DNA of 64,000 bases from Pontiella sp. (GTDB taxonomy: Bacteria > Verrucomicrobiota > Kiritimatiellia > Kiritimatiellales > Pontiellaceae). The notes beneath the pieces were generated by a model. The model had not been told where the DNA came from. It did no database searches and was given only the letters and a program-made list of their open reading frames with translations. Position 1 is the first letter of the stretch. Each line of letters opens with the position of its first letter. A program made the translations under genes and the position numbers. The stretch spans positions 642,713 through 706,712 of the forward strand of contig JBNKHE010000001.1 of assembly GCA_050290185.1 (NCBI GenBank), in the 5' to 3' direction. Shown here one piece after another: positions 4,751-49,757 of this stretch.

Positions 4751-4794
4751 CTGAAAACCAACGAAGGTCACGGACCTTCCAGAATGCGACCTGA

Positions 4795-12055: not shown

Positions 12056-12218
12056 GCCGGCAGACAAGATGGGTTCCCATACCGATTCCTGAACCACTCG
12101 GACCCGCTATGTTTTCTGCATTATTCCTATTATTTTCCCGTCCAAACCACTAAGATTTCCGAAGATTGGAACGACATCTGCTATTGCAGGTGTTTATGTT
12201 TAAAGCTAAGGGGAAATC

Positions 12219-34322: not shown

Positions 34323-34849
34323 CAGTCCACCTCCGATGCTGACTCCGGCTCATGCAGTTCCGACGCGGGAGTAAGCAACGTTTCGATGAGATTCTCGAGG
34401 GTGTAGATCACCATGAAAACACCGGAAATCGGAAGCGCCATATAGACATAGCCCATCAGCCATGGCAGCGCCGAAGTCCTTTGCTCCATGGCAAGCGCAT
34501 CCGCTACCACCCGCCAGCCCCCGTAAACAAAGATCGACCCGGCAAAAAAGAGCACCACCAGATGGGCGAACACCGCCATGAGCTTGCGGGCGTCGGGATC
34601 AAACTTGCCGACAAAATAATCGACGCCCAAATGGCCTTTAGTGCCAAACGCCACCGCGCCGCCGAGCAGCGATACCCAGATCAGGAGAAAGCGCGCCAGC
34701 TCTTCGGTCCATTTCGCCTGCTCGCCCATGACGTAGCGCGTGAAGACCCCCCAGACCACATCAATGACCAGTGCGAATACCGCAATGATCAACCCCCAAT
34801 TGAGAACGGTGGTCATTCCCTTCCTGAATTTAACCAGAGCGGTCAGCAT
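34322..34849 (-). CDS. dctQ: TRAP transporter small permease
   Basis: WTEELARFLLIW, GHLGVD; four TM segments. Confidence 0.93.
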   Translation of the reverse strand: MLTALVKFRKGMTTVLNWGLIIAVFALVIDVVWGVFTRYVMGEQAKWTEELARFLLIWVSLLGGAVAFGTKGHLGVDYFVGKFDPDARKLMAVFAHLVVLFFAGSIFVYGGWRVVADALAMEQRTSALPWLMGYVYMALPISGVFMVIYTLENLIETLLTPASELHEPESASEVD

Positions 34850-35868
34850 TACTTCACCTCGGAAATCTGTTTGAGCAGTTCGCGGACTTCAGGATTCTCG
34901 ACATTCCGAAGCATGGGTTGAACCTTGGCCGCGAATGCCGCGGTATCGACCTTGTACACCGTAACGCCTTCCGCCTTGGCCTGTTCGAGTGCTTCAACGG
35001 TTTTTTCCTGCCATAGCTTGCGTTCATATTCCGATGATTCATCGGCCGCCTGCTGAACCCACGCCTTAACCTGAGGATCAAGCTTGTCCCATACCTTCGT
35101 ACTCATGATCAACATGTCCGGAATGCGGGTATGTCCATCGAGGGTGAAATGTTTGCAGACCTCGTAGTGCTTATTGGAAGTGAAGCTGGGCGGATTGTTT
35201 TCGGCACCATCAACCGCCCCCTGTGCCAGCGCGGAATAAAGCTCGCCCCACGCAATCGGCGTCGGGGCCCCGCCCATCGCCTTGACCATGTCGATGGCAG
35301 TTTTACTGTTCATGACGCGAATCTTGAGGCCCTTCAGATCATCCGGTGTGCGGATCGGTGTATCCTTGGTGTAGAAGTTCCGGCTTCCGGCATCGTAGTA
35401 GCAAAGCCCGTACAAAAACTTGGATTGCCCTTTTTCGAGCAACTGTTTTCCGATCGGGCCGTTGATGACCTTCCAGTAGTGGTCGTTATCACGAAAGATG
35501 TAGGGCAGTCCAAAAACAGCCATGGATGGAATAAAGTTTTCCATGGCAGCGGCCGAGGTCTTGGTCATTGCCAGCGTTCCGTTCTGCAACATTTCAATGC
35601 ATTGGGTTTCAGAACCCAGGACCGAACTCGGATAGATATTAATGGTCACGGTTCCCCCGGAAAGTTCCTCCAGCCGGGTTTTCATAAACTCCATGGCCTT
35701 GTGCACCGGATGCCCGGTGTCGAGACTGTGCGCCAGCTTGAGAACCAGTTGGTTTCCGCCTCCTTTACCACTATTGATCTGGGCCCGTTGGCTGAGCGAA
35801 AAACCGGCTGCGGCAAGAAAGGCACCTACGAGAACCCCCCCCACAAAAAACGACGCTGATTTAGTCAT
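34849..35868 (-). CDS. dctP: TRAP transporter substrate-binding protein
   Basis: LKGLKIRV, ELYSALAQGAVDGAENN. Confidence 0.95.
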   Translation of the reverse strand: MTKSASFFVGGVLVGAFLAAAGFSLSQRAQINSGKGGGNQLVLKLAHSLDTGHPVHKAMEFMKTRLEELSGGTVTINIYPSSVLGSETQCIEMLQNGTLAMTKTSAAAMENFIPSMAVFGLPYIFRDNDHYWKVINGPIGKQLLEKGQSKFLYGLCYYDAGSRNFYTKDTPIRTPDDLKGLKIRVMNSKTAIDMVKAMGGAPTPIAWGELYSALAQGAVDGAENNPPSFTSNKHYEVCKHFTLDGHTRIPDMLIMSTKVWDKLDPQVKAWVQQAADESSEYERKLWQEKTVEALEQAKAEGVTVYKVDTAAFAAKVQPMLRNVENPEVRELLKQISEVK

Positions 35869-35893
35869 AAGCTTCCCTTTCCCCTACATATGT

Positions 35894-37219
35894 TTACGGT
35901 TGCTCCAGCACAAGTCCCACGATGTCGCAATCGTATTTCTTGTATGTCTCATAATCCCCTCGCAACCAGACCAGCACCTGGTACCCATCGCCCGCCACGA
36001 TAATCGGACGAAGGTTGCGCTTATCCGAACCCGCTGTAATCGGCTTCCATCGAATCGAATGGATATTGTCATCGGCATCGACCTTCGCCACATAGATTTC
36101 GTGCTGCCCCCCCAGATCCTTTCCGGTTCCGGGATCAACATCGGTTGAAATGGCCACTTTGGTCGGATCGACAGGATCCAGCGCAATCAGACCGGTATAA
36201 CTGCTTTCCGCCGTATAGAGGCATTTCCCGCCATAGGCCACTTCGCGGTCGATCCAGCGCTTGCCATTCCATGATGCCATGCGGTAGCGGTGGTCATCGT
36301 TGCTCAGATACAGCGTATAGCCGAGGTGCGGATTCCCTGCCGCATCAGCGGCCATGGCACAGCACCAGGCACTATCGGGAACGCTTTCAAATCCCTCGGG
36401 CTTTTTCTTCGTTTCGCTCCCGCGATAGATGCACTCGGCTTCGGACGGCTTGAGCGGTCCATCTGCCAGATCCTTGATTTTTTTCCCGTTGGCTTGATAA
36501 AATGAGCCGCCCCGGAACTCGGCATAATACAGGTTGTTGCCATACTGCCGGGGGTGCGCATCCGTGAAGGAAACCCCAACGGTATTGGCATCGCGCTGCA
36601 GGTACCGGGCATAGGGACGCTGCCAACCCAGCTCATCGGTAATAAAGTGCGTGCGGTTGCCCCAGGTTTTGCCCTGGTCCGCAGAGGTTATGAACGACGG
36701 ATTGATGTTCATGCCATCCCGGAAAAAGTTATAGAGCACCCCCTCGTCTTCCATGTAGAAGAGGTTCATGTAGGTGACGCCCCAGCCCCCTTCATATTCA
36801 TGAACGAACTCCTGTTCCGCACTCCATTTGAGATAGTTGTCGGGATCGGAAATCCGATAGCGATGGATATGGTCGTTGGCATGCCTGGTATAGACCGCAA
36901 GGATGCTTCCATCGGGACGGGCATAAAGTGCCGGCGCATCGTGGTCGTCGGCCTCAAAGGCTCCGTGCAACACAACCGTGCCGAGGTTTTTTCCGTTTTC
37001 GAGATCATAGATGCCGACTTTGACATCACCGTTTTGGCCGTCGATTCCGCCCACAATCAGCTTTCCGTTTGCGATGATGGCACGCGGATCCTGGTACCAG
37101 CACCAGCCGGCATCCTTCATAAAGGTGATGGATTCTGTATCGAGATCTGCCGGGCTGGCCGCCAGGCAACCTGACAGTAACCCAAGCATAGCCACCAATA
37201 TTGATGTAACACACTTCAT
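35894..37219 (-). CDS. BNR_4-like beta-propeller lipoprotein, candidate polysaccharide lyase
   Basis: Lipobox LSGC; GWCWYQDPRA; DDHDAPAL...YTRH; Asp-box SADQGKTW. Confidence 0.75.
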   Translation of the reverse strand: MKCVTSILVAMLGLLSGCLAASPADLDTESITFMKDAGWCWYQDPRAIIANGKLIVGGIDGQNGDVKVGIYDLENGKNLGTVVLHGAFEADDHDAPALYARPDGSILAVYTRHANDHIHRYRISDPDNYLKWSAEQEFVHEYEGGWGVTYMNLFYMEDEGVLYNFFRDGMNINPSFITSADQGKTWGNRTHFITDELGWQRPYARYLQRDANTVGVSFTDAHPRQYGNNLYYAEFRGGSFYQANGKKIKDLADGPLKPSEAECIYRGSETKKKPEGFESVPDSAWCCAMAADAAGNPHLGYTLYLSNDDHRYRMASWNGKRWIDREVAYGGKCLYTAESSYTGLIALDPVDPTKVAISTDVDPGTGKDLGGQHEIYVAKVDADDNIHSIRWKPITAGSDKRNLRPIIVAGDGYQVLVWLRGDYETYKKYDCDIVGLVLEQP

Positions 37220-37328
37220 CAACACATCTCCCGCAAACATACTCAAACGATAAAGGAAAGAACAATGCACAATACACATGCCCAAACCCAAATCAATATT
37301 TTATCGAGTCTACCACAGAGGAGAAAAG

Positions 37329-37369
37329 GTGCAAAAAAACGGCGCCGGAAATTCCGGCGCCGTTTGCAC
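37329..37369 (-). terminator. Terminator after kduD
   Basis: AAACGGCGCCGGAA/TTCCGGCGCCGTTT stem with T7 on the minus strand. Confidence 0.8.
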
Positions 37370-37386
37370 TGACCGATCGAAGTGAT

Positions 37387-38184
37387 TTACACGTCGTTTT
37401 CGCCTTTTACGTAGCCAAAGTTGGCCAGAATACCGCCGTCCACATAGAGGATGTGGCCGTTGACGAAATCTGCCGCCTTGGAAGACAGAAAGAGTGCGGC
37501 ATTGCCGATATCTTCCGGCTCGCCCCAGCGGGCGGCAGGCGTACGCATCATCACCAAATCGTTGAACGGATGGCCGCCTTCGCGGATCGGAGCCGTCTGC
37601 GCCGTAGCGATGTAGCCCGGCCCGATGCCGTTGACCTGGATGTTGTGCTTGGCCCATTCGCAGCACATGTTGGCAGTCAGCAGCTTCAGCCCGCCTTTGG
37701 CAGAGGCGTAGGCGGAAACCGAGTTGCGGCCATACACGCTCATCATGGAGCACATGTTGATAATCTTGCCGCCGCCCTTCTTGATCATGTTTGGCGCAAC
37801 GCGCTTGCCGACGATGAACGGAGCGATGAGGTCGACGTCGATGACCATCTTGTAATCTTCAACCGGCATGTCGAGAATCGGCACGCGCTTGATGATGCCG
37901 GCATTGTTGACGAGGATATCGATCGTGCCGACATCCTGCTCAATCTTCGAAATGCCCGCATCCACTTCTGCTTCGTCGGTTACGTTAAATTTAACCGTGT
38001 AGGCATCGATGCCGTTAGCCGCGTATTCGACCTTGGCGGATTCCAGCTTGGAATCGTCGATGTCGTTTACGCAGATTTTTGCGCCGGCCTTGCCCAGTAC
38101 CGTTCCAACGGCCATGCCGATGCCGTGCGTTCCGCCGGTAACCAATACCACCTTGTCCTTAATATCAAACAGTTCCTGAATCAT
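37387..38184 (-). CDS. kduD: SDR, 2-deoxy-D-gluconate 3-dehydrogenase / gluconate 5-dehydrogenase type
   Basis: TGGTHGIG, NNAG, YASAKGG, NGIGPGY; adjacent to kduI. Confidence 0.85.
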   Translation of the reverse strand: MIQELFDIKDKVVLVTGGTHGIGMAVGTVLGKAGAKICVNDIDDSKLESAKVEYAANGIDAYTVKFNVTDEAEVDAGISKIEQDVGTIDILVNNAGIIKRVPILDMPVEDYKMVIDVDLIAPFIVGKRVAPNMIKKGGGKIINMCSMMSVYGRNSVSAYASAKGGLKLLTANMCCEWAKHNIQVNGIGPGYIATAQTAPIREGGHPFNDLVMMRTPAARWGEPEDIGNAALFLSSKAADFVNGHILYVDGGILANFGYVKGENDV

Positions 38185-38295
38185 GATTTTCTCCTTATTT
38201 TCCAGACATGGGAGGCAAGGCGCCAGGCACAAGTGAAATGCTTGATGCGGATACCCTGTCCTCCCCCCGGTTGCCTTATGCTTATTTACTAATGC

Positions 38296-39123
38296 CTATT
38301 TGAGATCAGCGACCTGGATATGATCCATATCGTCGAACCGCTGGTTTTCGCCGCCCATCGCCCAACAGAAGGTATAGGCGCGCGTTCCGCAACCCGAGTG
38401 GATCGACCACATCGGCGAAATAACCGCCTGTTCGTTGGCCACGGCAATGTGGCGGGTTTCTTCGCCCGGCCCCATGAAGTGGAATACCTTGGAGGTTTCT
38501 TCCAAGCCAAAATACATATAGACCTCGGTACGGCGCTCGTGGGTATGGCACGGCATGGTGTTCCAGACACTGCCCGGCTCCAACGCCGTGAAGCCCATCA
38601 CGAGCTGGCAGCTCTTGATGCCGTTTTCATGAATGTACTGGTAGATCGTGCGCTTGTTGGAATCTTCCAGCGAACCCAGGTTGATGGCATTGGCATCGGC
38701 CTTCTTGGCCTGCGTGGTCGGGTATTCGGTATGCGCCGGATAGCTGACCATGTGGAAACGGGCCGGATTGGCAGCATCCACGCTGGAGAAGGAAATTTCC
38801 TTGCTTCCGCGACCGATGTAGAGACCGTCAAGGTTGTCCATGCTGTATTCAGTGCCGTCGACCGTAACCGTTCCAGTTGCCCCAATGTTCAGCACGCCGA
38901 TTTCGCGGCGCTGGCAGAAATAATCCGCCGCCAGCTCCTTGCCGGCTTCAAGCTTCAGCGTACTACTGGTTGGAACGGCCGCCCCGACAATCGAGCGCTC
39001 CACTTCGGTATAGAGCAGATTGAGCTTTCCTTCTTCGAACAGGCTGACCAGAAATGCGTCGCGCAGTTCCTGCGTGCTCATGCCTTTGTATTCGTTTTTT
39101 CCTACCGTGTATCTTACGTCCAT
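38296..39123 (-). CDS. kduI: 5-dehydro-4-deoxy-D-glucuronate isomerase
   Basis: RREIGVLNIG, SCQLVMG, WNTMPCHTHERRTE, WSIHSG, WAMGGENQ. Confidence 0.97.
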   Translation of the reverse strand: MDVRYTVGKNEYKGMSTQELRDAFLVSLFEEGKLNLLYTEVERSIVGAAVPTSSTLKLEAGKELAADYFCQRREIGVLNIGATGTVTVDGTEYSMDNLDGLYIGRGSKEISFSSVDAANPARFHMVSYPAHTEYPTTQAKKADANAINLGSLEDSNKRTIYQYIHENGIKSCQLVMGFTALEPGSVWNTMPCHTHERRTEVYMYFGLEETSKVFHFMGPGEETRHIAVANEQAVISPMWSIHSGCGTRAYTFCWAMGGENQRFDDMDHIQVADLK

Positions 39124-39147
39124 TTTTTCTCCTTTGTATTCAAATCA

Positions 39148-40032
39148 CTACAGCTGCCTTGCAAACGTGTTCAGGTATTCCATCCAGTCCTTGTCGGTCT
39201 TGATTTCGCCGGCGCGCTCCCAGCCATAGCCCGACCACCAAGTGACCTGCCCCCTTTTGTCGGCCCTGGAAATAAAGAGCACATGGCTTGAATCCGGCTC
39301 ATCCGCTTCGTTCCGCTTGAATTTTTCAATGGAGCGGGGATCCATCACGACCCCGGTTCCAAGACCCGAGCCATCAATCGTTTCCCAGCATGCGAGCCAT
39401 CCTTTACGCATTTGGTGGTCGACCTCGGCCTTGCCATCGTGAGTACTCAAACCGATGGCAACCGGCAGGTTTTTCGCCAGCTCGCCATCCTTCCAGAACG
39501 TTGCTTCCGTCTTGAAGAGCCTGTCGCCCAATTTAATGGTCATGCGTTTGGTGAGCTTGTACTCGTTGCCGCCGTGCTCCCAGGCATAGTTCAGTTCGAA
39601 GATGGATTCCGCCGGCTCGCACTGTATCACCTTGTAGTCGGTGAAGGTTTCGGTCGTAACCAGCTCGCCGTCGATCCACAGGCCGATCCCCCCGCAACCA
39701 AGCGTACTGCCGACATGGTAGGGATCGTACCCTTCCCCATGGTCGGTATGGTAGGGCTTGCCGTCCTTGTCCTGCTTGTACCATTTGTCAATGATCGGAT
39801 AGTCCACGCGCTTAAGCCAGCAGTCGACTCCGCCGTTTTCATTCCCTTTACGCAGGGCCGGCCCGTAGGCGCGAAAGGCAACCTTGTCGTTTTCCCAGGC
39901 AAAGTCGTCCGAACGCTCGGGAACAAAACGACAGAAGGTGCGGGGCGATGTCTCTTCTGCACAGGCACTCGCCAGGGCCATCAGCCCGAAAGCCGCCACG
40001 GCGGCCATACAGTTTGCAGGTTTCTTTTTCAT
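39148..40032 (-). CDS. DUF4861-like exported protein
   Basis: RFVPERSDDFAWENDKVAFRAYGP, GVDCWLK, YHTDHGEGYD; signal peptide. Confidence 0.8.
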   Translation of the reverse strand: MKKKPANCMAAVAAFGLMALASACAEETSPRTFCRFVPERSDDFAWENDKVAFRAYGPALRKGNENGGVDCWLKRVDYPIIDKWYKQDKDGKPYHTDHGEGYDPYHVGSTLGCGGIGLWIDGELVTTETFTDYKVIQCEPAESIFELNYAWEHGGNEYKLTKRMTIKLGDRLFKTEATFWKDGELAKNLPVAIGLSTHDGKAEVDHQMRKGWLACWETIDGSGLGTGVVMDPRSIEKFKRNEADEPDSSHVLFISRADKRGQVTWWSGYGWERAGEIKTDKDWMEYLNTFARQL

Positions 40033-40094
40033 AGTCCCCCAATCTAATCCTCTCCACCGCCGGAGCAATTTGGATGTTCATTTATTTTTACTTT

Positions 40095-40110
40095 TGTTCA
40101 AATATGAACA
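40095..40110. promoter_or_regulatory. Putative IclR operator
   Basis: TGTTCA-AATA-TGAACA palindrome in the divergent promoter, with extra half-sites at 40075-40080 and 40122-40127. Confidence 0.6.
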
Positions 40111-40120
40111 TCATATCCAT

Positions 40121-40882
40121 ATGAACAAATACCACATCCCCAATCTCGACAAGGCCTGCCAGGTGATCGAGCTCGTGGCCAGCACTCAGGGCGGATGCCC
40201 GCTGAAAGAGCTTTCCGCCCAACTTGATATTCCGCGCACAACCGCCCTGCGTATCGTGCAAACCTTGCAGGAACGAAATTTCCTGGCGCAAACCGGGGAT
40301 AAGTATTTTACGCCGGGAACGGCCTTGGTCCACCTGGGCGTGATGGCACTCGACAGCCTTGATATCCGCGGCTTTGCCCGTCCGGTTCTAAAGAAGCTAT
40401 CCCAAGAAACGGGGGAATCTTCCCATATCGCGATGTTGAATGGCGACAAATCGCTGCTTGTCGAGGTGTGCGACAGCCCCCACCCCATCCGGATCGCCTC
40501 CCGCCCCGGCACACTGGTGGACCTGCACTGTTCATCAACGGGAAAGGTATTCCTCGCCTTCAACATTCCCGAACCCTCGAAATTCTGCAGGACGCTGAAC
40601 CTGGTCGAACACACGGAAAACACCAGCACGACCATTGAAGAGGTTTTGGCCGACATTGAGCAAACCCGGAAACAAGGCTATGGCATCGATGAAGAGGAAT
40701 ATCTACCTGGCGCCCGCTGCATTGCCGCCCCCATCATGAACGCCTTCGGAAAAACCATTGCTGCCATCGGCATCACAGCTTCCACCAGCACTTTTACTAA
40801 AACCAAAATACCCACGATGAGCGCCCGTCTCAAAAAAGCCGCTGCAGAGATCTCCACCAGCATGGGCTTCAGCCACCAATAA
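40121..40882 (+). CDS. IclR/KdgR-family transcriptional regulator
   Basis: HTH LKELSAQLDIPRTTALRIV; LHCSSTGKVFLA; GYGIDEEE...RCIAAPI. Confidence 0.93.
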   Translation: MNKYHIPNLDKACQVIELVASTQGGCPLKELSAQLDIPRTTALRIVQTLQERNFLAQTGDKYFTPGTALVHLGVMALDSLDIRGFARPVLKKLSQETGESSHIAMLNGDKSLLVEVCDSPHPIRIASRPGTLVDLHCSSTGKVFLAFNIPEPSKFCRTLNLVEHTENTSTTIEEVLADIEQTRKQGYGIDEEEYLPGARCIAAPIMNAFGKTIAAIGITASTSTFTKTKIPTMSARLKKAAAEISTSMGFSHQ

Positions 40883-40952
40883 ACATCACCCCACAGCAAA
40901 CAAAAAGGCCGCTCCAACGAGCGGCCGGCATCTGTCGAAATGCAGAAGCTCT

Positions 40953-41411
40953 CTATTTGGAATCCCCGATCAGCTTTTTGATGTGCTCGACATACGCTTC
41001 CGCCCCGCCGGCCTGATAACCGGTTTTGGCGATAATATTTCCTTCAGGACTGATAATGAACATCGTTGGGAAACCGCGCACATTGAAACAGCGCGCCAGT
41101 TTTTCCTTTTGCTGAGAGGTTTCATCATTGGCGTTCAGTTCCTGAGAAAAATCCACAACCAGTACTATCAGGTTCTTTTCCACGTAATCCTGAAAAACCG
41201 AACTGGACGATACTTCCCTGTTGAATTTGATGCACCAGTCACACCAATCCGATCCGGTAAACTCCAAGAACAGGTATTTATCTTCCGCTTTCGACATTGC
41301 CAACGCGGCGCTGTAATCCGCATTATTAATTTTGCATACATCGCGATCTCGAAATAACACCGCAACCGCAACCAACCCCATCAATAACCCAACCAGCAGG
41401 ATCCGATTCAT
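40953..41411 (-). CDS. Exported thioredoxin-fold protein, DsbH-like
   Basis: N-terminal hydrophobic anchor; FTGSDWCDWC; GFPT. Confidence 0.88.
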   Translation of the reverse strand: MNRILLVGLLMGLVAVAVLFRDRDVCKINNADYSAALAMSKAEDKYLFLEFTGSDWCDWCIKFNREVSSSSVFQDYVEKNLIVLVVDFSQELNANDETSQQKEKLARCFNVRGFPTMFIISPEGNIIAKTGYQAGGAEAYVEHIKKLIGDSK

Positions 41412-41864
41412 CTAGCCCGCTTTCTTAGATGCTTCAGTCTCATTTTTCTTCACCTGATCGATAATCTCCTGCAACTCCTTTTGCTTATGCAATCCAGATA
41501 CACCCTTCTTGAGCTCTCCATCCTTGAATACCAACAGCGTCGGAAACTGATATACACCTAAAGCCCTGACCAAATTTTCGTTTTCATCAACATTAACCTT
41601 GGCCACTACTACATTCTTGCCAACGGTCTTGGCAAATTCCTCCAGAATAGGTCCCTGGACCTGGCAAGGCGGGCACCACGTCGCCCAGAAGTCCACCAGC
41701 ACGATCTCATGGGCCTTGATGGTCTGATAGAAATTGTCCTGCGTAAGAACAAGTACTGCAGACTTCTCCTCAGATACATCAGGCTTAGTTTGCTCTGTTT
41801 CAGCGGCAAAGGCCGTGTGCAGGGAAACACCTGCCACAACCAAAAACGATAACATTTTACTCAT
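41412..41864 (-). CDS. Exported thioredoxin
   Basis: Signal peptide AFA; DFWATWCPPC; FPTL. Confidence 0.9.
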   Translation of the reverse strand: MSKMLSFLVVAGVSLHTAFAAETEQTKPDVSEEKSAVLVLTQDNFYQTIKAHEIVLVDFWATWCPPCQVQGPILEEFAKTVGKNVVVAKVNVDENENLVRALGVYQFPTLLVFKDGELKKGVSGLHKQKELQEIIDQVKKNETEASKKAG

Positions 41865-42065
41865 ACATCTCCTATACAGGGTTAATTTAATTTGACTGAT
41901 TTAACAATGTTATTGTTTATGACACCTATTGGGGTGATCCGTTCACTACCGGATATTGAAGAAGTGCATGCAGAGCGCCTCAATGAGAGTCTTTCCCGTT
42001 CACTATCCTTGTATTCTCCCATCTATTTATGCCTTTATTCAAAATCACAAAAAAAGAGGTGACTT

Positions 42066-43391
42066 ATGCGCAAAGCATCACACTTGATTAAACACGCCGC
42101 CGGACTGAAACTACTTCCCGCTCTGACTGTACTGGGTATGACCCTATTCAGCGCCCAAACTGCCGAGGCCGTAGAACTACGCACCCCTACCCTGTGGGAC
42201 CTGTTTAAGCCCAGCCAGCCCCAGGTCAGTCCCAACACCCTAGAGGAGCTGATCGATCATATCCGGCACGGAAATGAATCCGCTACTTCGCTTAAGGAAC
42301 GATTCGGCGACCGCATTGCCGAATCCGCTAAAGCACTACGATACCTCGCGGACCGGTTCGCCAGCGAAGGAACCCCGAAACAGGCAAAGGAGATGTATGA
42401 AGCATCCATCGCGCTTAAACCCAACACAGAAAACCTGACGGCGATGGCGCGGTTCCTCCTTTCACAGGGCGATGAAGAGGGCTGGCTCAAAACCATGGAG
42501 CGGCGCCTCGACCTACCGTTCGACCTGTGGAACGACACAATCACCAACTTCGAGATCGCCTACCACTTTATCGATCAGGGCGAATGGGAAAAGGCCCTGC
42601 CCTATGCCGAAGCCGCCGCCATGCGTGGAGACAACGCGGCCTACAACCTGGCCGCATGGCTCAACGGCGCATTGGGTAATACCCAGCAAGGGCTTGCCCT
42701 ATCGGAACAGAATGCATTGCACAACTTAAGTGATTGCATCGCTACCTACGTCCTAGCCTTCGGTGCCACCCCTTCCGACTGGACCAATCAACTGCTCGAC
42801 TACTACTATGAAGCGCATTCACATGGTACCCCCATTGAGCGAGCACGATGTGTGAGCATTGCCTTGCTCCAGGAAAAATATGATGAAGCCGTGTCACTGA
42901 TGGAATGGTCACTGCAACAATCCAATGATCCCTGGTACGGTTTGCACGCCGCATTCATCTGCGAGGAGCAGGGCTGGATAGAGCGTAGGGACCAAATTCT
43001 TCAGGAGGCCGTAAAGCGCTGGCCGCGTTTCCCCAATCCCAACCGGAACCGAAAAAACACAAAAGCCTGCATCGATCTCTACATCCAAGCCAACCAGACA
43101 CAGGAACTGTCTGATGAACTTAAGGCGAAACTACAACATCTCTTCGATTCCTGCGGCCGGGGAAAATCGGCCTTTAACGGAGCGTACGCTGGAGAACTGT
43201 GCCGCCTGAGAGGCGAGCCGGAGATGGCTAAAGAGATGTACTGTGAAATCATCTCTGTAAAGCGCCTCAACAACGTCAGCGATTATGTTGCCTTCCGCGG
43301 GCTTCGGCTGCTCGGCGAAGATCCCGTCAAGATTTTGCAGACACAAAGAAACGTAATCCAACTGCACACGGAAATGCAGCCATCAGAATAG
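42066..43391 (+). CDS. Exported TPR-like protein A1
   Basis: Signal peptide AEA; helical repeats (GEWEKALPYAEAAA); paralog of 46017-47357. Confidence 0.8.
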   Translation: MRKASHLIKHAAGLKLLPALTVLGMTLFSAQTAEAVELRTPTLWDLFKPSQPQVSPNTLEELIDHIRHGNESATSLKERFGDRIAESAKALRYLADRFASEGTPKQAKEMYEASIALKPNTENLTAMARFLLSQGDEEGWLKTMERRLDLPFDLWNDTITNFEIAYHFIDQGEWEKALPYAEAAAMRGDNAAYNLAAWLNGALGNTQQGLALSEQNALHNLSDCIATYVLAFGATPSDWTNQLLDYYYEAHSHGTPIERARCVSIALLQEKYDEAVSLMEWSLQQSNDPWYGLHAAFICEEQGWIERRDQILQEAVKRWPRFPNPNRNRKNTKACIDLYIQANQTQELSDELKAKLQHLFDSCGRGKSAFNGAYAGELCRLRGEPEMAKEMYCEIISVKRLNNVSDYVAFRGLRLLGEDPVKILQTQRNVIQLHTEMQPSE

Positions 43392-43402
43392 GGAGGCCCA
43401 TC

Positions 43403-45790
43403 ATGAATATCATCCATTCCATCTTAAAATCGCCCTCCCGTTGTCTCCTTGCATTGGCATGCCTCCTTCTCCTATTGCCGGCCAGCCGTGCTGAACGATG
43501 GGATTGGAAATCCATGAACAACGACGAACAAGCCTTCTGCGACCAGCATATGCCTCGCATTCTGGAAATCCATAAAACCCAGGGCACCGAGGCGGCACTG
43601 GCCGCAATCGAAAAAACATACCAGTTGGCGGAGAGAACATTCCGCAACCCCTACTTTTTCAACCGGGCTGTCTGGTACGAGGCGCAGGTGAAAGGAGGCA
43701 AGGAAGACGAAGAATGGGGATTGGCCGCTTTTCAATATCTATGGGACCGAGATTTAAAAACACATCCCGAATACGCAATCCGCCTACCAAGCAACCAGTA
43801 TTGTTTGCTTGATAACATCATTGAAAAGAATGCGGAACTTGGAAGGATGGCACAGGCTCGCGCCGTTCGATTGCAGTCCGAAAACTACCTCACCACTCAA
43901 AAAGGACTGGACACCAGCGGAACGTCCTACACGGATATGGGACCGATCTATTCGTTCCTGCCTGAAGCCCGCAAACGCGACTTCCCGATCTATGAACACG
44001 AACTGCCCATGCGCTACCGGGATCCGACCACAGAAACCAAGAAGGACTTTATCGAATACCCCAACATCTATGTGCTTGGTGGGATTGCCGATATGGCACA
44101 AAACTCCGGCGACTGGATCAAAGCCGCTGAATTGAGCATCTGGTGTGCCCGATATGCAGATAAGTACGTTCCAGGCAAAAACCACATGCACAGCGAAGTC
44201 GACAGAATTCTCGCCTTTGGATCCGCCGCACGCCTGGCCGACATTGCCCTGTTGCACGGATATCCCCAGGAGGCACGGCATTTTCTCGAAGAATACGTAG
44301 AGAATTCGGCCGGAAAATACAACTCATGGAAATGTATCTTATATAGGGCTAAACTGGAGCTTGCGGTCACAAAAATCAAGACAGGAGGCTTGGTCGAGGA
44401 AGACATGGTCATGGCCGACGAAGCGGTAGAACTAATCATAGAAGATCCCTACTACGGTCGATCAACCAACATCGGCAGTATCCTGAACAAAGCCCGCATC
44501 TACCATGCATTGGGGCACAAGCAGGAAGCGTGGAGCATGGTCGACAACCTGATGGCCGAAGCGGAAACCGACGTCAACCCCTACCATTGGGTCAGGATGC
44601 TCACCACCGCCATCGACTTGGCACTCGATGACGGAGCCATCCGGCCAGAGCTGGAGAAGTGGTTGGTATTGGCGCTGGATAATGCGCGACAAGCCGGCAA
44701 CAAATTTGAAGAGCTCCCTCTTTACGAAAAATATGCCCACTTCCTCATGATGAAGGGGCGCTATGCCGAAGCCGTCCAGATCCAACAGGAAGCCGTCCGC
44801 CTCGCCAAAGCCATGAGCCTGCCCAAACGCCTGCAGGAGAACCTCGACAAGCTCGCCGACATGCAGCGGCAGATCAGCGATAGACAACTTGCCATGGATT
44901 CCAAGCCGCAGCAGGAAGAAAATCAACCGCAAACCGCCCCTGCTGAAAACTCTCCGGCGGAAGATCGCTCAACACCCCGCCATGGAGGGCTTTCAGCATC
45001 TACCCCTTCCGTGGACATCCAGCCGCGCTCCAGCCTGTCGGCGGCGTTGCCGGGACGACCCGCATACGGTCGTTTCTACCTCCACAACCCGGCCGCCGTT
45101 TCCCAGCAAGGCACGCTTCAGCTGACCGGAGCCATCGATCAACCCGAATGGCGCAACCAACAATGGTTCACCGTCAGCGCCAGCCCAATGTTTGAATCGG
45201 TTCAGCTCGAGAAGACCTTAAACCTGGAGCCGGGAGCATCCTGCATCATCGACATCCTGGGGCTTCCGCTGGAAAACGGCGATGATGCCGAAGTGTCCTG
45301 CCAATGGGTTCCAACCGGGCAGGAACAAGCCGGCGCTACCGGCACATGGAAATATGAATCCGCCGACAACGGCAAACGCACCGCCGTCATCGATGCCCAC
45401 GAGCTGCTGGATAACCCGTTCTACCTTATCCCGATCCACCACATGCTCCAGCGGATCGATTCCGATACGGAGGAGACGATCGACTTCACGGTGGAAGCCT
45501 CCGCCCCCATGCGGATCGAAGCCTACGATGCGCTATCGGGCGAGCTGCTGGCCATCGATGCCAACGGGGACGGCGATTTCATGGACCGGGGCGACCAGAT
45601 TGTCGGCGACGGCAACCGCAACAGCTGGCCCGACCTCGTGTTTGGCAAAAGCCAGCAACTCGCCTCGCTGGTGATGTACGTCAAGCCCACCCAGGCCATG
45701 ACGAACGATGTGGAACTGACAGTCAGCATTCGCGTCAATGACGAGTGGCAGGTCGACTCCATCGACGTCATAAAGCCAGCGGCCCCATAG
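43403..45790 (+). CDS. Exported TPR-like protein B1 with C-terminal beta domain and DxNxDG loop
   Basis: GGAGG SD; signal peptide SRA; GRYAEAVQIQQEAVRL; DANGDGD; paralog of 47354-49720. Confidence 0.8.
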   Translation: MNIIHSILKSPSRCLLALACLLLLLPASRAERWDWKSMNNDEQAFCDQHMPRILEIHKTQGTEAALAAIEKTYQLAERTFRNPYFFNRAVWYEAQVKGGKEDEEWGLAAFQYLWDRDLKTHPEYAIRLPSNQYCLLDNIIEKNAELGRMAQARAVRLQSENYLTTQKGLDTSGTSYTDMGPIYSFLPEARKRDFPIYEHELPMRYRDPTTETKKDFIEYPNIYVLGGIADMAQNSGDWIKAAELSIWCARYADKYVPGKNHMHSEVDRILAFGSAARLADIALLHGYPQEARHFLEEYVENSAGKYNSWKCILYRAKLELAVTKIKTGGLVEEDMVMADEAVELIIEDPYYGRSTNIGSILNKARIYHALGHKQEAWSMVDNLMAEAETDVNPYHWVRMLTTAIDLALDDGAIRPELEKWLVLALDNARQAGNKFEELPLYEKYAHFLMMKGRYAEAVQIQQEAVRLAKAMSLPKRLQENLDKLADMQRQISDRQLAMDSKPQQEENQPQTAPAENSPAEDRSTPRHGGLSASTPSVDIQPRSSLSAALPGRPAYGRFYLHNPAAVSQQGTLQLTGAIDQPEWRNQQWFTVSASPMFESVQLEKTLNLEPGASCIIDILGLPLENGDDAEVSCQWVPTGQEQAGATGTWKYESADNGKRTAVIDAHELLDNPFYLIPIHHMLQRIDSDTEETIDFTVEASAPMRIEAYDALSGELLAIDANGDGDFMDRGDQIVGDGNRNSWPDLVFGKSQQLASLVMYVKPTQAMTNDVELTVSIRVNDEWQVDSIDVIKPAAP

Positions 45791-45799
45791 GCAAAGGTG

Positions 45800-45829
45800 A
45801 AAAAAGCCGCCCCGCAAGGGACGGCTTTT
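45800..45829 (+). terminator. Terminator of cassette copy 1
   Basis: AAAAGCCGCCCC-GCAA-GGGACGGCTTTT. Confidence 0.8.
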
Positions 45830-45854
45830 ACAACTCCATCGCGGGATGGACTAG

Positions 45855-45882
45855 TTGACACCAACAATATACACGTTATGAT
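45855..45882 (+). promoter_or_regulatory. sigma70-like promoter upstream of cassette copy 2
   Basis: TTGACA-N16-TATGAT. Confidence 0.55.
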
Positions 45883-46016
45883 AGCGGTTCACCCAAATTG
45901 CTCACCACGAATCAGCACCTCACCAATTCGATGGACAGCGCTTTTCCCGAAGCGCATTCTTGCATAAGTCCTTTAAAATATGCCTTTAATCGAAATAAAT
46001 CCCTAAAGGGAAAAGC

Positions 46017-47357
46017 ATGAATAAACCATCGCACGCACTCTATCGTTTTCTTGGCGCAAGCTTGTTTGCAGGCATCACCGTTATCGGCGCACTTGTCCTG
46101 CTACCCCAAACCGGCGACGCAGTACAGCTTCGTACGCCCAGCATCTGGGACCTGCTCGTGCCGACGCAACCGCAGTCCCATCCTGAAACCATGGAGGAAC
46201 TGGTCGACCACATCCGCTATGGAAACGAATCGGCGAAAAAACTGCAGGAACGTTTTGCTGATCGTATCGCCGAGTCCGCCGAGGCCACGCGCTATCTCGG
46301 CGAACGCTTCGCACACGAAGGCAATCCGGAACAGGCCATTAAAACATACGAACAATCCATTGAGCTCAAACCCGGCAAGGAAAACCTGACGGCGTTGGCC
46401 AACCTGCTCCTTTCGCAGGGCGACGAGGACAGCTGGCTGGCGACCATGAAAAAACGGCTCGATCTGCCGTTCGACCGATGGAACGATGCAGAGACGAATC
46501 ATGGGATTGCAGCTCATTTTATCGAAACCGGAAAATGGGAACAGGCCCTCCCCTATGCAGAAGCCGCCGCCATGCGTGGCTACTGGTGGGATTACCGCCA
46601 AGCAGCATGGCTCAATGCCGCCTTGGACAACATCCAGCACGGTCTGGAGTGGATGGAGCAGGAACAGGCCAGATGGGGGGATTCCGGCCTATACACCTAT
46701 GTTGCCGCGTTCGACCCAAGACCAACAGATTGGACCAACGAACTGCTCGATAACTACTGTTCGAGATTTTCGCAAGGCAATGCCATTGTACGGGCTCAAT
46801 GCATGAGTATTGCCGTCTTTCGGGAAGATTATGACACCGCAGCTTCACTCATGGAATGGGGACTACTCCATACAAACGATCCATGGTACGGTTTGCACGC
46901 TGCTCTAATTTGCGAGGAACAGGGCTGGATCGAGCGCCGGGACCGAATACTCACGGAGGCGGTCGAACGCTGGGAGGCTTTCCCCAATCAAGACCGATGC
47001 CGCAGGAACATGAAAACATTCATCGACCTGTATATTCAAGCCAACAATCACACGACACTCACCCCGAAACTCAAACGGCAATTACAGACGCTCTTTGATT
47101 CCTGCGGCCGGCGAAAGGCGGATTTCAACGGAGCCTATGTCGGGGAATTATGCCGCCTGAAAGGTGAACCGGAAATGGCTAGGAAGATGTACTCGGAAAT
47201 GGTTTCCGTGCTTCCCCTTGCCAACATCAGCGACTATGTCGCCTTCCGCGGCCTTCGGCTTATCGGCGAAGATCCCGTCAAGATCATGCAAGCACATAGG
47301 GAAAAGCTTCTTGAACAGAACAAGAAGAAATCAGCGGATCCAGGAGTAACATTATGA
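46017..47357 (+). CDS. Exported TPR-like protein A2
   Basis: Shares AVxLRTPxxWDL, NDPWYGLHAA, LFDSCGR and SDYVAFRGLRL with A1. Confidence 0.8.
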   Translation: MNKPSHALYRFLGASLFAGITVIGALVLLPQTGDAVQLRTPSIWDLLVPTQPQSHPETMEELVDHIRYGNESAKKLQERFADRIAESAEATRYLGERFAHEGNPEQAIKTYEQSIELKPGKENLTALANLLLSQGDEDSWLATMKKRLDLPFDRWNDAETNHGIAAHFIETGKWEQALPYAEAAAMRGYWWDYRQAAWLNAALDNIQHGLEWMEQEQARWGDSGLYTYVAAFDPRPTDWTNELLDNYCSRFSQGNAIVRAQCMSIAVFREDYDTAASLMEWGLLHTNDPWYGLHAALICEEQGWIERRDRILTEAVERWEAFPNQDRCRRNMKTFIDLYIQANNHTTLTPKLKRQLQTLFDSCGRRKADFNGAYVGELCRLKGEPEMARKMYSEMVSVLPLANISDYVAFRGLRLIGEDPVKIMQAHREKLLEQNKKKSADPGVTL

Positions 47358-49720
47358 AATTTATGCACAACAAAATCGCTCTGTTCATCCTGATAACAGC
47401 ATTCTCCCTGCTCCATTCTGCCAGCGCTGGTCGTTGGAATTGGGAATCATTTGGTCCAGACAAGGACGCTTTCTGCGAAGAACACATGCCGCGCATTCTC
47501 GAAATCCGCAGCACACAAGGAACCGAAGCCGCGCTTGCTGCCATTGAAAAAACCTTCAGGTTGGCCGAAAAACAGTTTTCAGATCCCTACTTTTTCCATA
47601 GCGCGATCTGGCACGAAGCCCAGGTCATGACAGGGAACGAAGACGAAGCATGGGGGTTGGCGGTGTACGAATACCTTTGGGATCGGGACATGCGCAAGCA
47701 TCCTGAATACGCACTCCGACTTCCGGGCAGCGAATACCTGTTGCTAGACTGCATCAGCAGCAGTAATTGGCAACTCGGCAGGGCAGCGCAGGCCCGAGCA
47801 CTTCTTTTTCAGGAGGAAGACTATCTGACCACCCAAAAGGGATTGGATACTGACTGCACGACCTACCTCGATAATGGCCCGATTTTTTCATTCCTCCCGG
47901 CCGCTCGCAAACGGATATTCCCAATCCGCGAGCAAGACCTTCCCATGCGTTATCGGGGACCGACAGAAATGACGAAAGAGGACTTCATCTACTATCCCTA
48001 CATCTACACACTGACTTTTATTGCAGGTTCCGCGCAAGCTTCCGGCGACTGGATCAAGGCCGCCGAACTTAGCGCATGGGGCATCCGCTATGCCGACGCC
48101 TACATGGAGGCAGAAGATTTTTTTCAGGGAGAAATCGGAAGAGTGGTGGGATATGGCTCGCACAAGCGACTTGCTGATCTGGCCCTATTGCATGGATATC
48201 CGGAAGAGGCCGCTGGCTTTCTCCGCACTTTTATTGAAAAAGCAGAGAGCTACTATGAAACCGGCGAATGGGATATTCTCCTTGCGAAGCTTGCCTTGGC
48301 CGTTATCCGAATCCAGCTCGGAGAACTGACCGAGGATGATTTGGACCTGGCCGATAAAGCACAGAAAGAGATTGCGGGAAACCAATGGAACAGCCGCTCG
48401 ACCGTATTGAGTGGATCATTAAACAAGGCACGCGTCTACTATGCACTTGGCCATAAGCAGAAAGCATGGGAGATGGTCGAAACCTTATTCGAAAAAACCG
48501 CCTCGGATGTAAATCCCTACCACTGGGTTTGCATACTGGGCACGGCCATCGACCTTGCGTTGGAGGATGGCGCCGCACGCCCCGAGCTGGAAGAATGGCT
48601 CGTGCTGGCACTGGAGAATGCGCGCCGAACCGGCAATAAATTCGAGGAGCTTCCGCTCTATGAAAAATATGCACGGTTTCTCATGATCAAAGGGCGTTAT
48701 GCCGAAGCTGTTCAAATCCAACAGGAGGCCATCCGGCTCGCCAAAGCCATGAGCCTGCCCAAACGGTTGCAGGACAACCTCGATGTACTGGCAGACATGC
48801 AGCAACGGATCGCGAATGAAGCCGTGGCCGATGTTCCGGATTCGCAAAGCATCGATCCAACACCGGAAATCGTAGAAACCGAGCCGCCGACAAAAACCAT
48901 CCGACCGATTACAGGTGGCGCGACTCAAACTATTCCAGCCATTGATATCCAGCCGCGCTCCAGCCTGTCTGCGGCGTTACCGGGACAACCCGCGTACGGC
49001 CGCTTCTACCTCCACAACCCGGCCGCCGTTGCCCAACAAGGAACGTTTCAACTGACCGGCGCCATCGATCAACCCGAATGGCAAAACAAACAATGGTTCA
49101 CCATCAGCGCCAGTCCGGCATTTGCAACGGTCCAGCTTGAGAACACCTTAAACCTGGAGCCGGGAGCATCCTGCATCATCGACATTCTGGGATCGCCGTT
49201 GGAAAACGGCGAAGGCGCGGGCGTTTCCTGCCAATGGGTTCCAACCGGGCAGGAACAAACCGGCATTACCGGAACCTGGGAATATGAGTCGGCCGACAAC
49301 AGCAAACGCACCGCCGTCATCGATGCGCACGAGTTGCAGGAGAACCCGTTCTACCTTATCCCGATCCACCATATGCTCCAGCGCACTGATACGGAAGGAA
49401 GCGCAATTGTCGATTACACCATCGAAGCCTCCTCCCCCATGCGGATCGAATCCTACGACGCGTTTACGGGCGAGCTGCTGGCCGTGGACGCAAACGGTGA
49501 TGGCGATTTTCTGGATGAGGGCGACCAGATCGTCGGCGACGACAACCGCAACAGCTGGCCCGACCTCGTGTTTGATGAAAACCAGCATCTCGCCTCGCTG
49601 GTGATGTATGTCAAGCCCACCCAAGCCATGACGACCGATACGGAGCTGACGGTCAGCATTCGCGTCAACGACGCGTGGCAGGTCGACTCCATCGACGTCA
49701 TAAAGCCATCGACACCATAA
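47354..49720 (+). CDS. Exported TPR-like protein B2
   Basis: ATGA overlap with A2; shares HMPRILEI, GNKFEELPLYEKYA and WQVDSIDVIKP with B1. Confidence 0.8.
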   Translation: MKFMHNKIALFILITAFSLLHSASAGRWNWESFGPDKDAFCEEHMPRILEIRSTQGTEAALAAIEKTFRLAEKQFSDPYFFHSAIWHEAQVMTGNEDEAWGLAVYEYLWDRDMRKHPEYALRLPGSEYLLLDCISSSNWQLGRAAQARALLFQEEDYLTTQKGLDTDCTTYLDNGPIFSFLPAARKRIFPIREQDLPMRYRGPTEMTKEDFIYYPYIYTLTFIAGSAQASGDWIKAAELSAWGIRYADAYMEAEDFFQGEIGRVVGYGSHKRLADLALLHGYPEEAAGFLRTFIEKAESYYETGEWDILLAKLALAVIRIQLGELTEDDLDLADKAQKEIAGNQWNSRSTVLSGSLNKARVYYALGHKQKAWEMVETLFEKTASDVNPYHWVCILGTAIDLALEDGAARPELEEWLVLALENARRTGNKFEELPLYEKYARFLMIKGRYAEAVQIQQEAIRLAKAMSLPKRLQDNLDVLADMQQRIANEAVADVPDSQSIDPTPEIVETEPPTKTIRPITGGATQTIPAIDIQPRSSLSAALPGQPAYGRFYLHNPAAVAQQGTFQLTGAIDQPEWQNKQWFTISASPAFATVQLENTLNLEPGASCIIDILGSPLENGEGAGVSCQWVPTGQEQTGITGTWEYESADNSKRTAVIDAHELQENPFYLIPIHHMLQRTDTEGSAIVDYTIEASSPMRIESYDAFTGELLAVDANGDGDFLDEGDQIVGDDNRNSWPDLVFDENQHLASLVMYVKPTQAMTTDTELTVSIRVNDAWQVDSIDVIKPSTP

Positions 49721-49729
49721 GCGAAGACG

Positions 49730-49757
49730 AAAAAAGCCGCCCCGAGGGACGGCTTTA
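49730..49757. terminator. Terminator of cassette copy 2, shared with fbaA
   Basis: AAAAAAGCCGCCCC-GA-GGGACGGCTTT, homologous to 45800-45829. Confidence 0.75.

What the first reader, a model, noticed from the sequence alone, without database searches (positions are those of the whole stretch)
40953..49757. Tandemly duplicated exported two-gene cassette divergent from two exported thioredoxins
Seen: an A1-B1-terminator-A2-B2-terminator arrangement in which the upstream region (TTTCCCG..CTTG.AT..TATGCCTTTA.TC.AAAT) and the terminator are duplicated too. All four proteins have signal peptides and TPR-like helices. A1 and A2 share four Cys (ARC/AQC, ICEEQ, SCGR, ELCRL). B1 and B2 share Cys (AFC, ASCII, VSCQW) and a DANGDGD..D..D..NRNSWPD Ca-binding-like segment. 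A and B are tightly spaced (11-nt gap or ATGA overlap). A WCPPC thioredoxin and a DsbH-like WCDWC protein share the divergent promoter region. I recognise no family or catalytic motif. Inference: an undescribed envelope A:B complex in two specificity variants with dedicated thiol-redox partners. This is the best novel-system candidate in the window.
Basis: partly seen in the sequence, partly recalled or inferred. Interest (0 to 1): 0.75.

Follow-up and report, generated by a model that had tools for sequence, protein, structure and literature searches.

The report
Repeat-protein pair clasped by a loop
Two neighbouring genes, present twice in a row, encode likely exported repeat proteins that are predicted to clasp each other through a short loop kept only in relatives that have the partner gene; they likely form a non-enzymatic binding scaffold in the cell envelope, and the thioredoxin genes next door are probably mostly bystanders.

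Summary
The anatomy is real: A1-B1 and A2-B2 (60% and 66% identical) lie between a resident dsbH-like gene and fba in a Pontiellaceae-like genome. B belongs to an unmodelled Verrucomicrobiota family (419 clusters): TPR solenoid, flexible linker, two Ig-like domains with a Dx[DN]xDG loop. It usually stands alone (A directly upstream in 2 of 46 other loci). A is the C-terminal TPR part of larger proteins. The A:B complex is supported: the prediction scored 0.65 against 0.00 for the best control (one of three runs failed), with B residues 198-215 in A's groove. Independently, that loop is 61% identical among A-linked B proteins and 19% among equally diverged others. Dedicated thioredoxins are not supported: dsbH-like genes are in 73 of 89 genomes of the order, usually next to fba without A or B; the WCPPC thioredoxin has no close counterpart in the relatives searched. 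A weak association of A-like genes with dsbH/dsbD remains. Specificity variants are untested, and the conserved loop argues against them. The duplication is old, with later homogenisation of the Ig region. The ligand is unknown. New variant of a known kind; interest 0.4.

The parts
40907..40926 (-). Terminator-like hairpin after the dsbH-like gene
40953..41411 (-). DsbH-like thioredoxin-fold protein, 152 aa, WCDWC; in the position of the resident fba-adjacent gene of the genus but unusually diverged (47.6% mean identity to the others against 73-75% among them)
41412..41864 (-). Thioredoxin with N-terminal signal-like extension, 150 aa, WCPPC; no close counterpart in 88 other genomes of the order (best 44% identity, in G107, where neither A nor B was found)
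41992..42045 (+). Upstream motif, copy 1 (promoter-like, function not shown)
42066..43391 (+). A1, 441 aa, likely Sec-exported TPR protein; homologous to the C-terminal half of 940-1170 aa proteins
42519..42815 (+). A1 residues 152-250: predicted groove that holds B's loop (contacts 152-157, 186-188, 211-221, 239-250)
43403..45790 (+). B1, 795 aa: signal-like N-terminus, TPR-like solenoid (about 40-499), low-confidence linker (501-532), two beta-sandwich domains (about 538-791)
43766..43783 (+). B1 residues 122-127: second predicted contact patch
43994..44047 (+). B1 residues 198-215: predicted docking loop (LPMRY motif), conserved only in A-linked B proteins
45008..45787 (+). B1 tandem Ig-like module that defines the wider family (419 clusters); Dx[DN]xDG loop and second acidic loop at 45557-45634
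45800..45829 (.). Hairpin copy 1 (T-runs on both strands)
45851..45862 (-). Remnant of fba's last codons (GVN-stop): right end of the duplicated unit
45943..45996 (+). Upstream motif, copy 2
46017..47357 (+). A2, 446 aa, paralogue of A1 (60% identity, dS about 1.8, dN 0.27)
47354..49720 (+). B2, 788 aa, paralogue of B1 (66%); docking-loop equivalent at 47930-47983; Ig module 48938-49717 much closer to B1 (dS 0.39) than the rest
49730..49756 (.). Hairpin copy 2, scored as the terminator of the convergent fba gene

Best explanation
A and B are co-encoded TPR proteins, likely exported through the inner membrane, that are predicted to form a heterodimer in which A's groove clamps a loop of B, and the pair likely works as a non-enzymatic protein- or ligand-binding scaffold in the cell envelope. 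Shown in sequence or by search: operon-like spacing, the duplication, B's family and architecture, A's homology to the C-terminal half of larger proteins, and the loop's conservation pattern. Predicted: the folds, and the interface between B 122-127/198-215 and A 152-250. Inferred: B is the older, self-sufficient unit; one Pontiellaceae lineage placed a shortened A in front of it, after which a previously free loop came under constraint as A's docking site. Also inferred: the Ig pair, stiffened by Ca2+, would act as stalk or anchor on a flexible linker, and the most variable solenoid stretch of B (261-390, outside the predicted interface) would face the unknown ligand. The two cassettes are old paralogues (synonymous sites near saturation) whose 3' ends were later homogenised. 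The dsbH-like gene is the resident neighbour of the insertion site and at most a general reductase for these proteins.
For: Complex prediction B1 32-499 with A1 37-430: score 0.65 (runs 0.65, 0.00, 0.71), best of 3 controls 0.00; the mark was reached by 116 of 157 solved and 2 of 215 mismatched pairs (roughly only, as own alignments were used); runs agree in at least 0% of contacts; partner pLDDT at least 83. No solved sequence relative beyond generic TPRs was found for A or for B's Ig module. Independent check: the two best non-overlapping windows out of 679 sliding 15-residue windows, ranked by conservation in 6 A-linked against 16 unlinked B proteins, start at 196 and 114, i.e. they cover the two predicted contact segments (about 1 in 1000 by a rough count of 46 non-overlapping windows). 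At matched overall identity the loop is 61% identical in 15 linked pairs (overall 59%) and 19% in 103 other pairs (overall 54%). The G364 protein, sister to the linked clade in the tree and without A upstream, is 59-65% identical overall to five of the six linked proteins but 13-27% in the loop. Eight A contact positions, picked by me from the 18 listed, are 79% identical among 8 short A proteins (56% overall) and 16% against 3 stand-alone A-like proteins (32% overall); all 18 give 54% and 13%. B model: pLDDT 84, helical solenoid plus beta sandwiches; best matches MalT domain III (Z 15.4, rmsd 4.6, 342 aligned) and generic Ig folds (Z 9.0 or less). No enzyme or defence family matched. 84 of 109 full-length family members keep a D[ASDG]xG[DN]G loop.
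Against: One of three prediction runs gave 0.00, and B's Ig module was left out for size. Five of the six linked B proteins form one clade, so loop conservation is partly shared descent. B works without an adjacent A in 44 of 46 loci, and genome-level co-occurrence of the broad families is weak (3 both, 5 A only, 9 B only, 72 neither; p 0.07, kin not independent). The scaffold role rests on fold and on the absence of a catalytic motif; no ligand was identified. Export was not tested with a predictor.
Confidence: 0.55

Rival explanations
1. A binds B but as a dedicated chaperone, escort or cap that protects or silences B during export, not as a lasting subunit of a binding scaffold.
For: Same interface evidence; A is encoded first; the contact is small (33-36 residue pairs) and made by a loop of low confidence in the B monomer (pLDDT 59 at 201-210).
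Against: Most B proteins have no A beside them, so B's fold does not need it; the loop sits away from B's most conserved motifs.
Confidence: 0.17
2. B is a periplasmic sensor module and A tunes it; the pair would signal through a separate membrane protein to an ECF sigma factor or kinase.
For: 2 of the 26 longer family members scanned (P0074, P0129) are ECF sigma factors joined to the TPR-Ig module, with a hydrophobic stretch in between read from the sequence. B-like genes lie beside an ECF sigma and zf-HC2 anti-sigma pair in G215.
Against: Neither B1 nor B2 has a sigma domain or an internal membrane-length hydrophobic stretch above 2.0; no ECF gene lies next to the cassettes; other members carry Sel1 or FG-GAP N-termini instead, so the module is used promiscuously.
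Confidence: 0.1
3. A and B are merely co-inserted and co-transcribed; the predicted contact is a modelling artefact and the loop is conserved by recent common descent.
For: One run of three failed; linked B proteins are mostly one clade; both families turn up singly between unrelated housekeeping genes.
Against: Matched-identity control 61% against 19%; loop decay in the G364 protein and retention (47%) in the more distant P0015; the windows found by conservation coincide with the predicted contacts.
Confidence: 0.12
4. One reading: an A:B complex in two insulated specificity variants served by dedicated thioredoxins.
For: All three genomes with a verified A-B cassette have a thioredoxin-fold gene within about 2 kb (dsbH-like in G000 and G290; dsbD and a dsbD 3' remnant in G199:C55). 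Long A-like genes sit beside dsbH in G301 and G399. Beyond the discovery site that is 2 of 10 sites against a 1-2% baseline (p 0.009-0.035, post hoc), 2 of 12 after two more loci. C262 and C299 are kept in 8 of 8 short A proteins. The window's DsbH is unusually diverged and the region is low in GC (0.459), so trx-dsbH may have arrived with a cassette.
Against: dsbH-like in 73 of 89 genomes, fba-adjacent in 25 of 29 loci with A in 1; the G399 neighbour is the resident exonuclease-dsbH-fusA site, seen without A in 10 of the 15 other loci of that family fetched. Trx is absent from the G290 cassette locus and has no close counterpart elsewhere. B's C614 and C633 are lost independently and are absent in the 11 distant members of alignment A5. 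Among the 59 B loci without an adjacent A, 2 have a thioredoxin hit by the local profile (p 0.29), 3 with a TlpA-type gene found by Pfam. Variable segments of A and B are not congruent.
Confidence: 0.06

Closest known systems
TPR-groove peptide clamps (RRNPP receptors such as Rap, PlcR, AimR; kinesin light chain, LGN)
   Same: Alpha-solenoid fold (B solenoid matches Rap phi105 Z 14.8, PlcR Z 12.7); A is predicted to hold an extended stretch in its groove. That TPR grooves bind linear peptides is recalled knowledge.
   Different: The bound stretch is an internal loop of a 790-aa co-encoded protein, not a secreted pheromone or a terminal tail; both partners have signal-like N-termini; no HTH or phosphatase family matched.
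MalT domain III (1hz4) and PF17874 TPR_MalT
   Same: Best structural match of B's solenoid (Z 15.4, rmsd 4.6, 342 aligned, 12% identity); sub-threshold PF17874 hits in several distant B relatives.
   Different: No STAND ATPase or LuxR domain; likely exported; Z is only slightly above other helical repeats, so it shows a common arrangement, not kinship.
Uncharacterised TPR plus DUF11/CARDB Ig-like proteins (ESM Atlas clusters, Acidobacteriota and others)
   Same: Same broad architecture and length (788-884 aa), feature scores 0.80-0.81; CARDB/DUF11-type clusters at 0.84-0.85 for the Ig module.
   Different: All scores are under 0.9 (leads only); no DUF11 or CARDB hit in any of 22 members scanned.
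Chlamydial DsbH (NF043050) and the DsbD pathway
   Same: The 152-aa protein scores 114.6 bits on NF043050. DsbH is described as a reducing periplasmic oxidoreductase (PMC5193440, passages read). dsbH lies beside dsbD in 3 of 18 loci fetched.
   Different: Below the 190-bit cut-off; near-universal in the order and not tied to A or B.
GEVED domain (PF20009) and Dx[DN]xDG calcium loops
   Same: B's DANGDG fits the Dx[DN]xDG motif, which is biased to exported proteins (PMC3123361, passages read); the resemblance to GEVED's D.N.DGDF.D.GE stretch is recalled from memory.
   Different: PF20009 matched 1 of 22 members at E 0.043 and not B1.

Membership tests
TPR repeat proteins (Pfam TPR clan) | Repeats that reach a Pfam TPR gathering score | tested here: met
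   A1 TPR_14 28.2 > 23.5; A2 TPR_2 32.4 > 27. B1 and B2 give sub-threshold hits only.
TPR repeat proteins (Pfam TPR clan) | Alpha-alpha solenoid fold | tested here: met
   B1 model has 20 helices in 40-499 and matches TPR solenoids at Z 10-15; A folded at pLDDT 83-88 in the complex and its profile matches consensus TPR structures.
RRNPP peptide receptors | Cytoplasmic receptor with N-terminal HTH or phosphatase bundle | tested here: not met
   N-termini are hydrophobic signal-like stretches; no such family matched.
RRNPP peptide receptors | Short pheromone precursor gene downstream | tested here: not met
   The gene downstream of A is the 788-795 aa B.
MalT-like STAND regulators | NTPase domain and LuxR-type HTH | tested here: not met
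   No such Pfam or NCBIfam hit up to E 1.
Dx[DN]xDG calcium-binding loop | Motif D-x-[DN]-x-D-G | tested here: met
   D719-A-N-G-D-G in B1 and the same in B2; D719, G722, G724, G730, D731 invariant in 22 of 22 aligned members.
Dx[DN]xDG calcium-binding loop | Ca2+ actually bound | not testable with these tools
   Needs ITC or a structure.
GEVED domain PF20009 | Match to the profile | tested here: not met
   1 of 22 members, E 0.043; none for B1.
CARDB / DUF11 Ig-like domains | Match to profile or distinct structural match | tested here: inconclusive
   No Pfam hit in 22 members; CARDB 3idu Z 8.0 among many Ig folds at Z 7.3-9.0; Atlas scores under 0.9.
DsbH (NF043050) | Score above the curated cut-off | tested here: not met
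   114.6 bits against 190.
DsbH (NF043050) | Thioredoxin fold with WCxWC and N-terminal export signal | tested here: met
   PF13098 44.2 > 27, WCDWC, hydrophobic N-terminus.
DsbH (NF043050) | Reducing redox potential, recycling by DsbD | not testable with these tools
   Needs biochemistry.
Thioredoxin (TIGR01068) | Score above cut-off, CxxC | tested here: met
   101.1 > 96.8 bits, WCPPC; has an extra signal-like N-terminus.
ECF sigma factors with fused extracytoplasmic module | Sigma70 r2/r4 plus membrane helix in the same chain | tested here: not met
   Absent from B1 and B2; sigma domains present in relatives P0074 and P0129.
Anti-phage defence systems (PADLOC) | Match to a defence protein model | tested here: not met
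   0 families up to E 0.1 for all four proteins.

The most novel reading that the evidence does not exclude
B is a Verrucomicrobiota-wide envelope sensor module (the one fused to ECF sigma factors in relatives), and A is a newly born clamp subunit cut from a larger lipoprotein that captured one of B's free loops. The two cassettes are insulated A1:B1 and A2:B2 receptors for different ligands, kept reduced by the co-located DsbH and thioredoxin. This would be a new two-subunit periplasmic receptor and a datable case of a protein interface being born.
Probability: 0.1. Interest if true: 0.7.

Novelty: new variant of a known kind. Interest (0 to 1): 0.4.

Why it matters
It defines an unmodelled, phylum-wide domain family (the TPR plus tandem-Ig B proteins, 419 clusters at 50% identity) and a specific, testable interaction: an 18-residue loop and a named set of groove residues. 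It also offers a natural before-and-after series for the gain of a partner subunit, since the loop is constrained only where A is encoded upstream and has decayed in a close relative without it. It does not overturn a known mechanism: TPR-loop clamps and calcium-stabilised Ig domains are familiar parts, the pair is confined to a few Pontiellaceae-like genomes among those searched, and its ligand is unknown.

Tried and rejected
Family scans (Pfam, NCBIfam, PADLOC) gave only generic TPR and thioredoxin hits. Fold searches of the whole B model and of the Ig module alone gave no match standing clear of generic solenoids or Ig folds; this neither excludes a family nor shows a new fold. PDB sequence search with the Ig profile: best E 0.0065, no passing stretch. 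ESM Atlas: nothing at 0.9 or above. A-B fusion protein: none among the proteins held (A profile against all of them); a search for longer A relatives returned 1 protein, which is weak evidence. Upstream motif as a genome-wide promoter: not enriched. Structural disulfide C614-C633 in B: rejected, the two are lost independently. Recent tandem duplication: rejected, dS about 1.8 for A and 1.5 to saturated for B's solenoid; the B1-B2 sister grouping in the tree (support 97, quick search only) may come from the homogenised 3' region. Co-variation of A's and B's variable segments: not seen in 6 pairs. Charge complementarity at A154/B210 and A219/B207, read by eye, was not consistent across pairs. 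Expression: no RNA holder listed. Literature: four searches found no paper on these families; I saw listings only, except passages of PMC7826278, which did not mention this module. Earlier scan findings: three look-ups returned nothing. Non-cognate pairs and a possible contact with B's Ig module were not modelled (one job, 1000-residue limit).
Full report
Observation. The six ORFs, their spacing, the shared cysteines, the acidic segment, the duplicated upstream motif and the two hairpins are all in the sequence. A1/A2 are 60% and B1/B2 66% identical. Three details change the picture. The hairpin after B2 scores as a minus-strand terminator, that of the convergent fba gene. Its copy after B1 is followed by fba's last codons, so the duplicated unit runs from the region upstream of A into the 3' end of fba. 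The upstream motif is not a genome-wide pattern. Signal peptides rest on hydrophobic N-termini alone. Contigs from three DNA runs of one study cover the B1-A2-B2 junction without differences, so the tandem is not an artefact of one assembly, though the runs are not independent studies. Named homologues are Pontiellaceae and Kiritimatiellales, which places the genome by inference.

What B is. The model of B1 (pLDDT 84, 33-row alignment) has a helical solenoid at about 40-499, a low-confidence linker at 501-532 and two beta sandwiches. The solenoid matches TPR-like proteins, best MalT domain III at Z 15.4, rmsd 4.6, 342 aligned, with many others close behind. The C-terminal module folded alone (pLDDT 87) matches generic Ig-like domains at Z 9.0 or less. 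No Pfam model covers it. A profile of it finds 419 clusters at E up to 0.001, and in the 150 listed it lies at the C-terminus, mostly of 700-1300 aa proteins. Of 109 full-length members, 84 keep a D[ASDG]xG[DN]G loop and 99 match the solenoid profile as well. N-termini vary: Sel1 repeats, FG-GAP propellers and, in 2 of 26 long members scanned, ECF sigma domains. B matched 20 of 401 genomes of the class and 12 of 89 of the order. The DANGDG stretch fits the Dx[DN]xDG calcium motif, which is biased to exported proteins (PMC3123361, passages); binding is inferred.

What A is. A has bona fide TPR hits. The short form has 8 members in the protein search. It is homologous to the C-terminal half of 940-1170 aa proteins and of a 526-aa protein with a lipobox-like N-terminus elsewhere in this genome; none of those has B directly downstream. 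The broad family matched 11 of 401 genomes of the class.

Linkage. From B's side the pair is the exception: A lies directly upstream in 2 (G199:C55, G290:C28) of 46 other loci that have at least 500 nt upstream, counted by hand from the 61 loci; 15 were dropped as too short, and some of the 46 are close kin. From A's side, every short A whose context I could read precedes B (two here, G290, G199:C55), two more share a contig length with a B, and two (P0043, P0045) are on contigs too short to tell. At genome level the broad families overlap little (3 both, 5 A only, 9 B only of 89; p 0.07). So B is self-sufficient and short A is an add-on in one lineage.

The complex. B1 32-499 with A1 37-430 scored 0.65 (runs 0.65, 0.00, 0.71) against 0.00 for the best of 3 controls. 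The mark was reached by 116 of 157 solved and 2 of 215 mismatched pairs, counts that hold only roughly with my own alignments; the runs agree in at least 0% of contacts and the partner's pLDDT is at least 83. The interface puts B 198-215 and 122-127 against A 152-157, 186-188, 211-221 and 239-250. I then ranked 679 sliding windows of B by conservation in 6 A-linked against 16 unlinked proteins; the best two non-overlapping windows start at 196 and 114. At matched overall identity, the loop is 61% identical in 15 linked pairs and 19% in 103 other pairs. The LP[MS][RH][YL] motif occurs in exactly the six linked proteins among the stored proteins over 500 aa. The G364 protein, sister to the linked clade and without A upstream, has lost the motif. 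Against this: one run failed, the linked set is mostly one clade, two members are linked by inference, and the Ig module was not in the job. The model supports binding; it does not show it.

The duplication. Synonymous divergence is about 1.8 between A1 and A2 and 1.5 to saturated in B's solenoid, as high as against G290 and G199, but 0.39 in the Ig module; nucleotide identity rises to 75-90% from about 45007 onwards. The simplest reading is an old duplication, or capture of a relative's cassette at the same site, followed by gene conversion of the 3' end. The most variable stretches are A 201-260 (45% between copies) and B 261-390 (43-45%). They are mosaic across relatives and not congruent: A1 is closest to the G199 A in 201-260 (65%) while B1 is farthest from the G199 B in 261-330 (36%). 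The docking loop is 73% identical between B1 and B2. Insulated specificity is therefore doubtful, although A's variable stretch borders the interface. It was not tested.

The thioredoxins. DsbH-like genes occur in 73 of 89 genomes of the order. In the 29 best other loci fba is adjacent in 25 and A in 1, so the cassettes were inserted between fba and a resident gene. G290 has the same insertion in one copy, with dsbH but without the WCPPC thioredoxin, and that thioredoxin has no close counterpart in the other 88 genomes. B's C614 and C633 are lost independently. C262 and C299 are kept in all 8 short A proteins, and the window's DsbH is oddly diverged (47.6% against 73-75%; WCDWC where 27 of 31 have WCGWC). 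DsbH is described as a reducing periplasmic enzyme (PMC5193440, passages; the primary paper was not read). A loose benefit from a general reductase is possible; dedicated partners are not supported.

Mechanism and verdict. Most likely A and B are exported, A clamps B's loop, and the pair is a non-enzymatic binding scaffold whose Ig module is a calcium-stiffened stalk or anchor and whose variable solenoid surface meets an unknown ligand (0.55; about 0.8 for binding alone). Rivals: A as chaperone or cap (0.17), no complex (0.12), sensor module (0.10), the full dedicated-redox, two-variant model (0.06). Four paper searches found no description; subscription journals and supplements were not covered, and supplementary proteomics tables of Pontiella studies could list these genes. 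The parts are of known kinds (TPR clamp, Ig domains, Dx[DN]xDG loop), while the families and their pairing are undescribed in what I could search: new variant of a known kind, interest 0.4.

Noticed in passing
L001:8051-9631 (G000:C1:12050-13630): Third A-family gene in this genome, 526 aa, lipobox-like N-terminus and an extra domain of about 110 aa with no Pfam hit; it recalls polyglycine-hydrolase-like repeats (from memory, untested). A close copy is in G321 (L083). No B beside it.
   Followed up: partly
L087:6778-9779 (G301): A long A-like gene sits at the same fba-dsbH site as the cassettes and is split into two reading frames; only 21-24% identical to A1/A2. The site may be an insertion hotspot.
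   Followed up: partly
L085:8090-8839 (G254) and L036:8980-11364 (G117): At one syntenic site (queG to metalloenzyme gene) one genome has a truncated A-like gene and another has B; L146 has a long A two genes from B. This may be a trace of older A-B linkage or of shared hotspots.
   Followed up: partly
L033:2990-3277 and 4342-4710 (G199:C55): A 73%-identical remnant of dsbD's 3' end lies next to B, echoing the duplicated fba 3' end in the window; insertions here seem to duplicate the end of the resident gene.
   Followed up: partly
P0074, P0129: ECF sigma factors fused through a hydrophobic stretch to the B-type TPR-Ig module.
   Followed up: partly
L038, L039, L124, L128, L139, L141, L146: A subgroup of stand-alone B genes recurs just after a hisI-like gene, often convergent with a hisF-like gene (names read from the N-terminal sequences, recalled, not scanned).
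   Followed up: no
L040:9904-14557, L041 (G331, G351): B followed by a short secretin (PF00263 plus PF03958) and what look like efflux adaptor and ABC genes.
   Followed up: no
L002:6847-7284 (G000:C1:226846-227283): Second DsbH-like gene (WCGWC), 55.6% mean identity to the genus copies, i.e. closer to them than the window's copy is.
   Followed up: partly
window 32799-40882: Uronate-type catabolic cluster next to the finding (TRAP-type transporter, kduD-like and kduI-like genes, IclR regulator 40121-40882); names recalled from the sequences, not scanned. The IclR gene is next to dsbH in 10 of 29 related loci, so it is not specific to A-B.
   Followed up: no
window 4193-7023: ECF-type sigma factor followed by a 742-aa protein that starts like the ECF-associated Ser/Thr kinases of PVC bacteria (recalled, not scanned).
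   Followed up: no
window 9521-15314 and 17236-20511: Three large proteins (844, 1031, 1091 aa) with signal-like N-termini, not examined.
   Followed up: no
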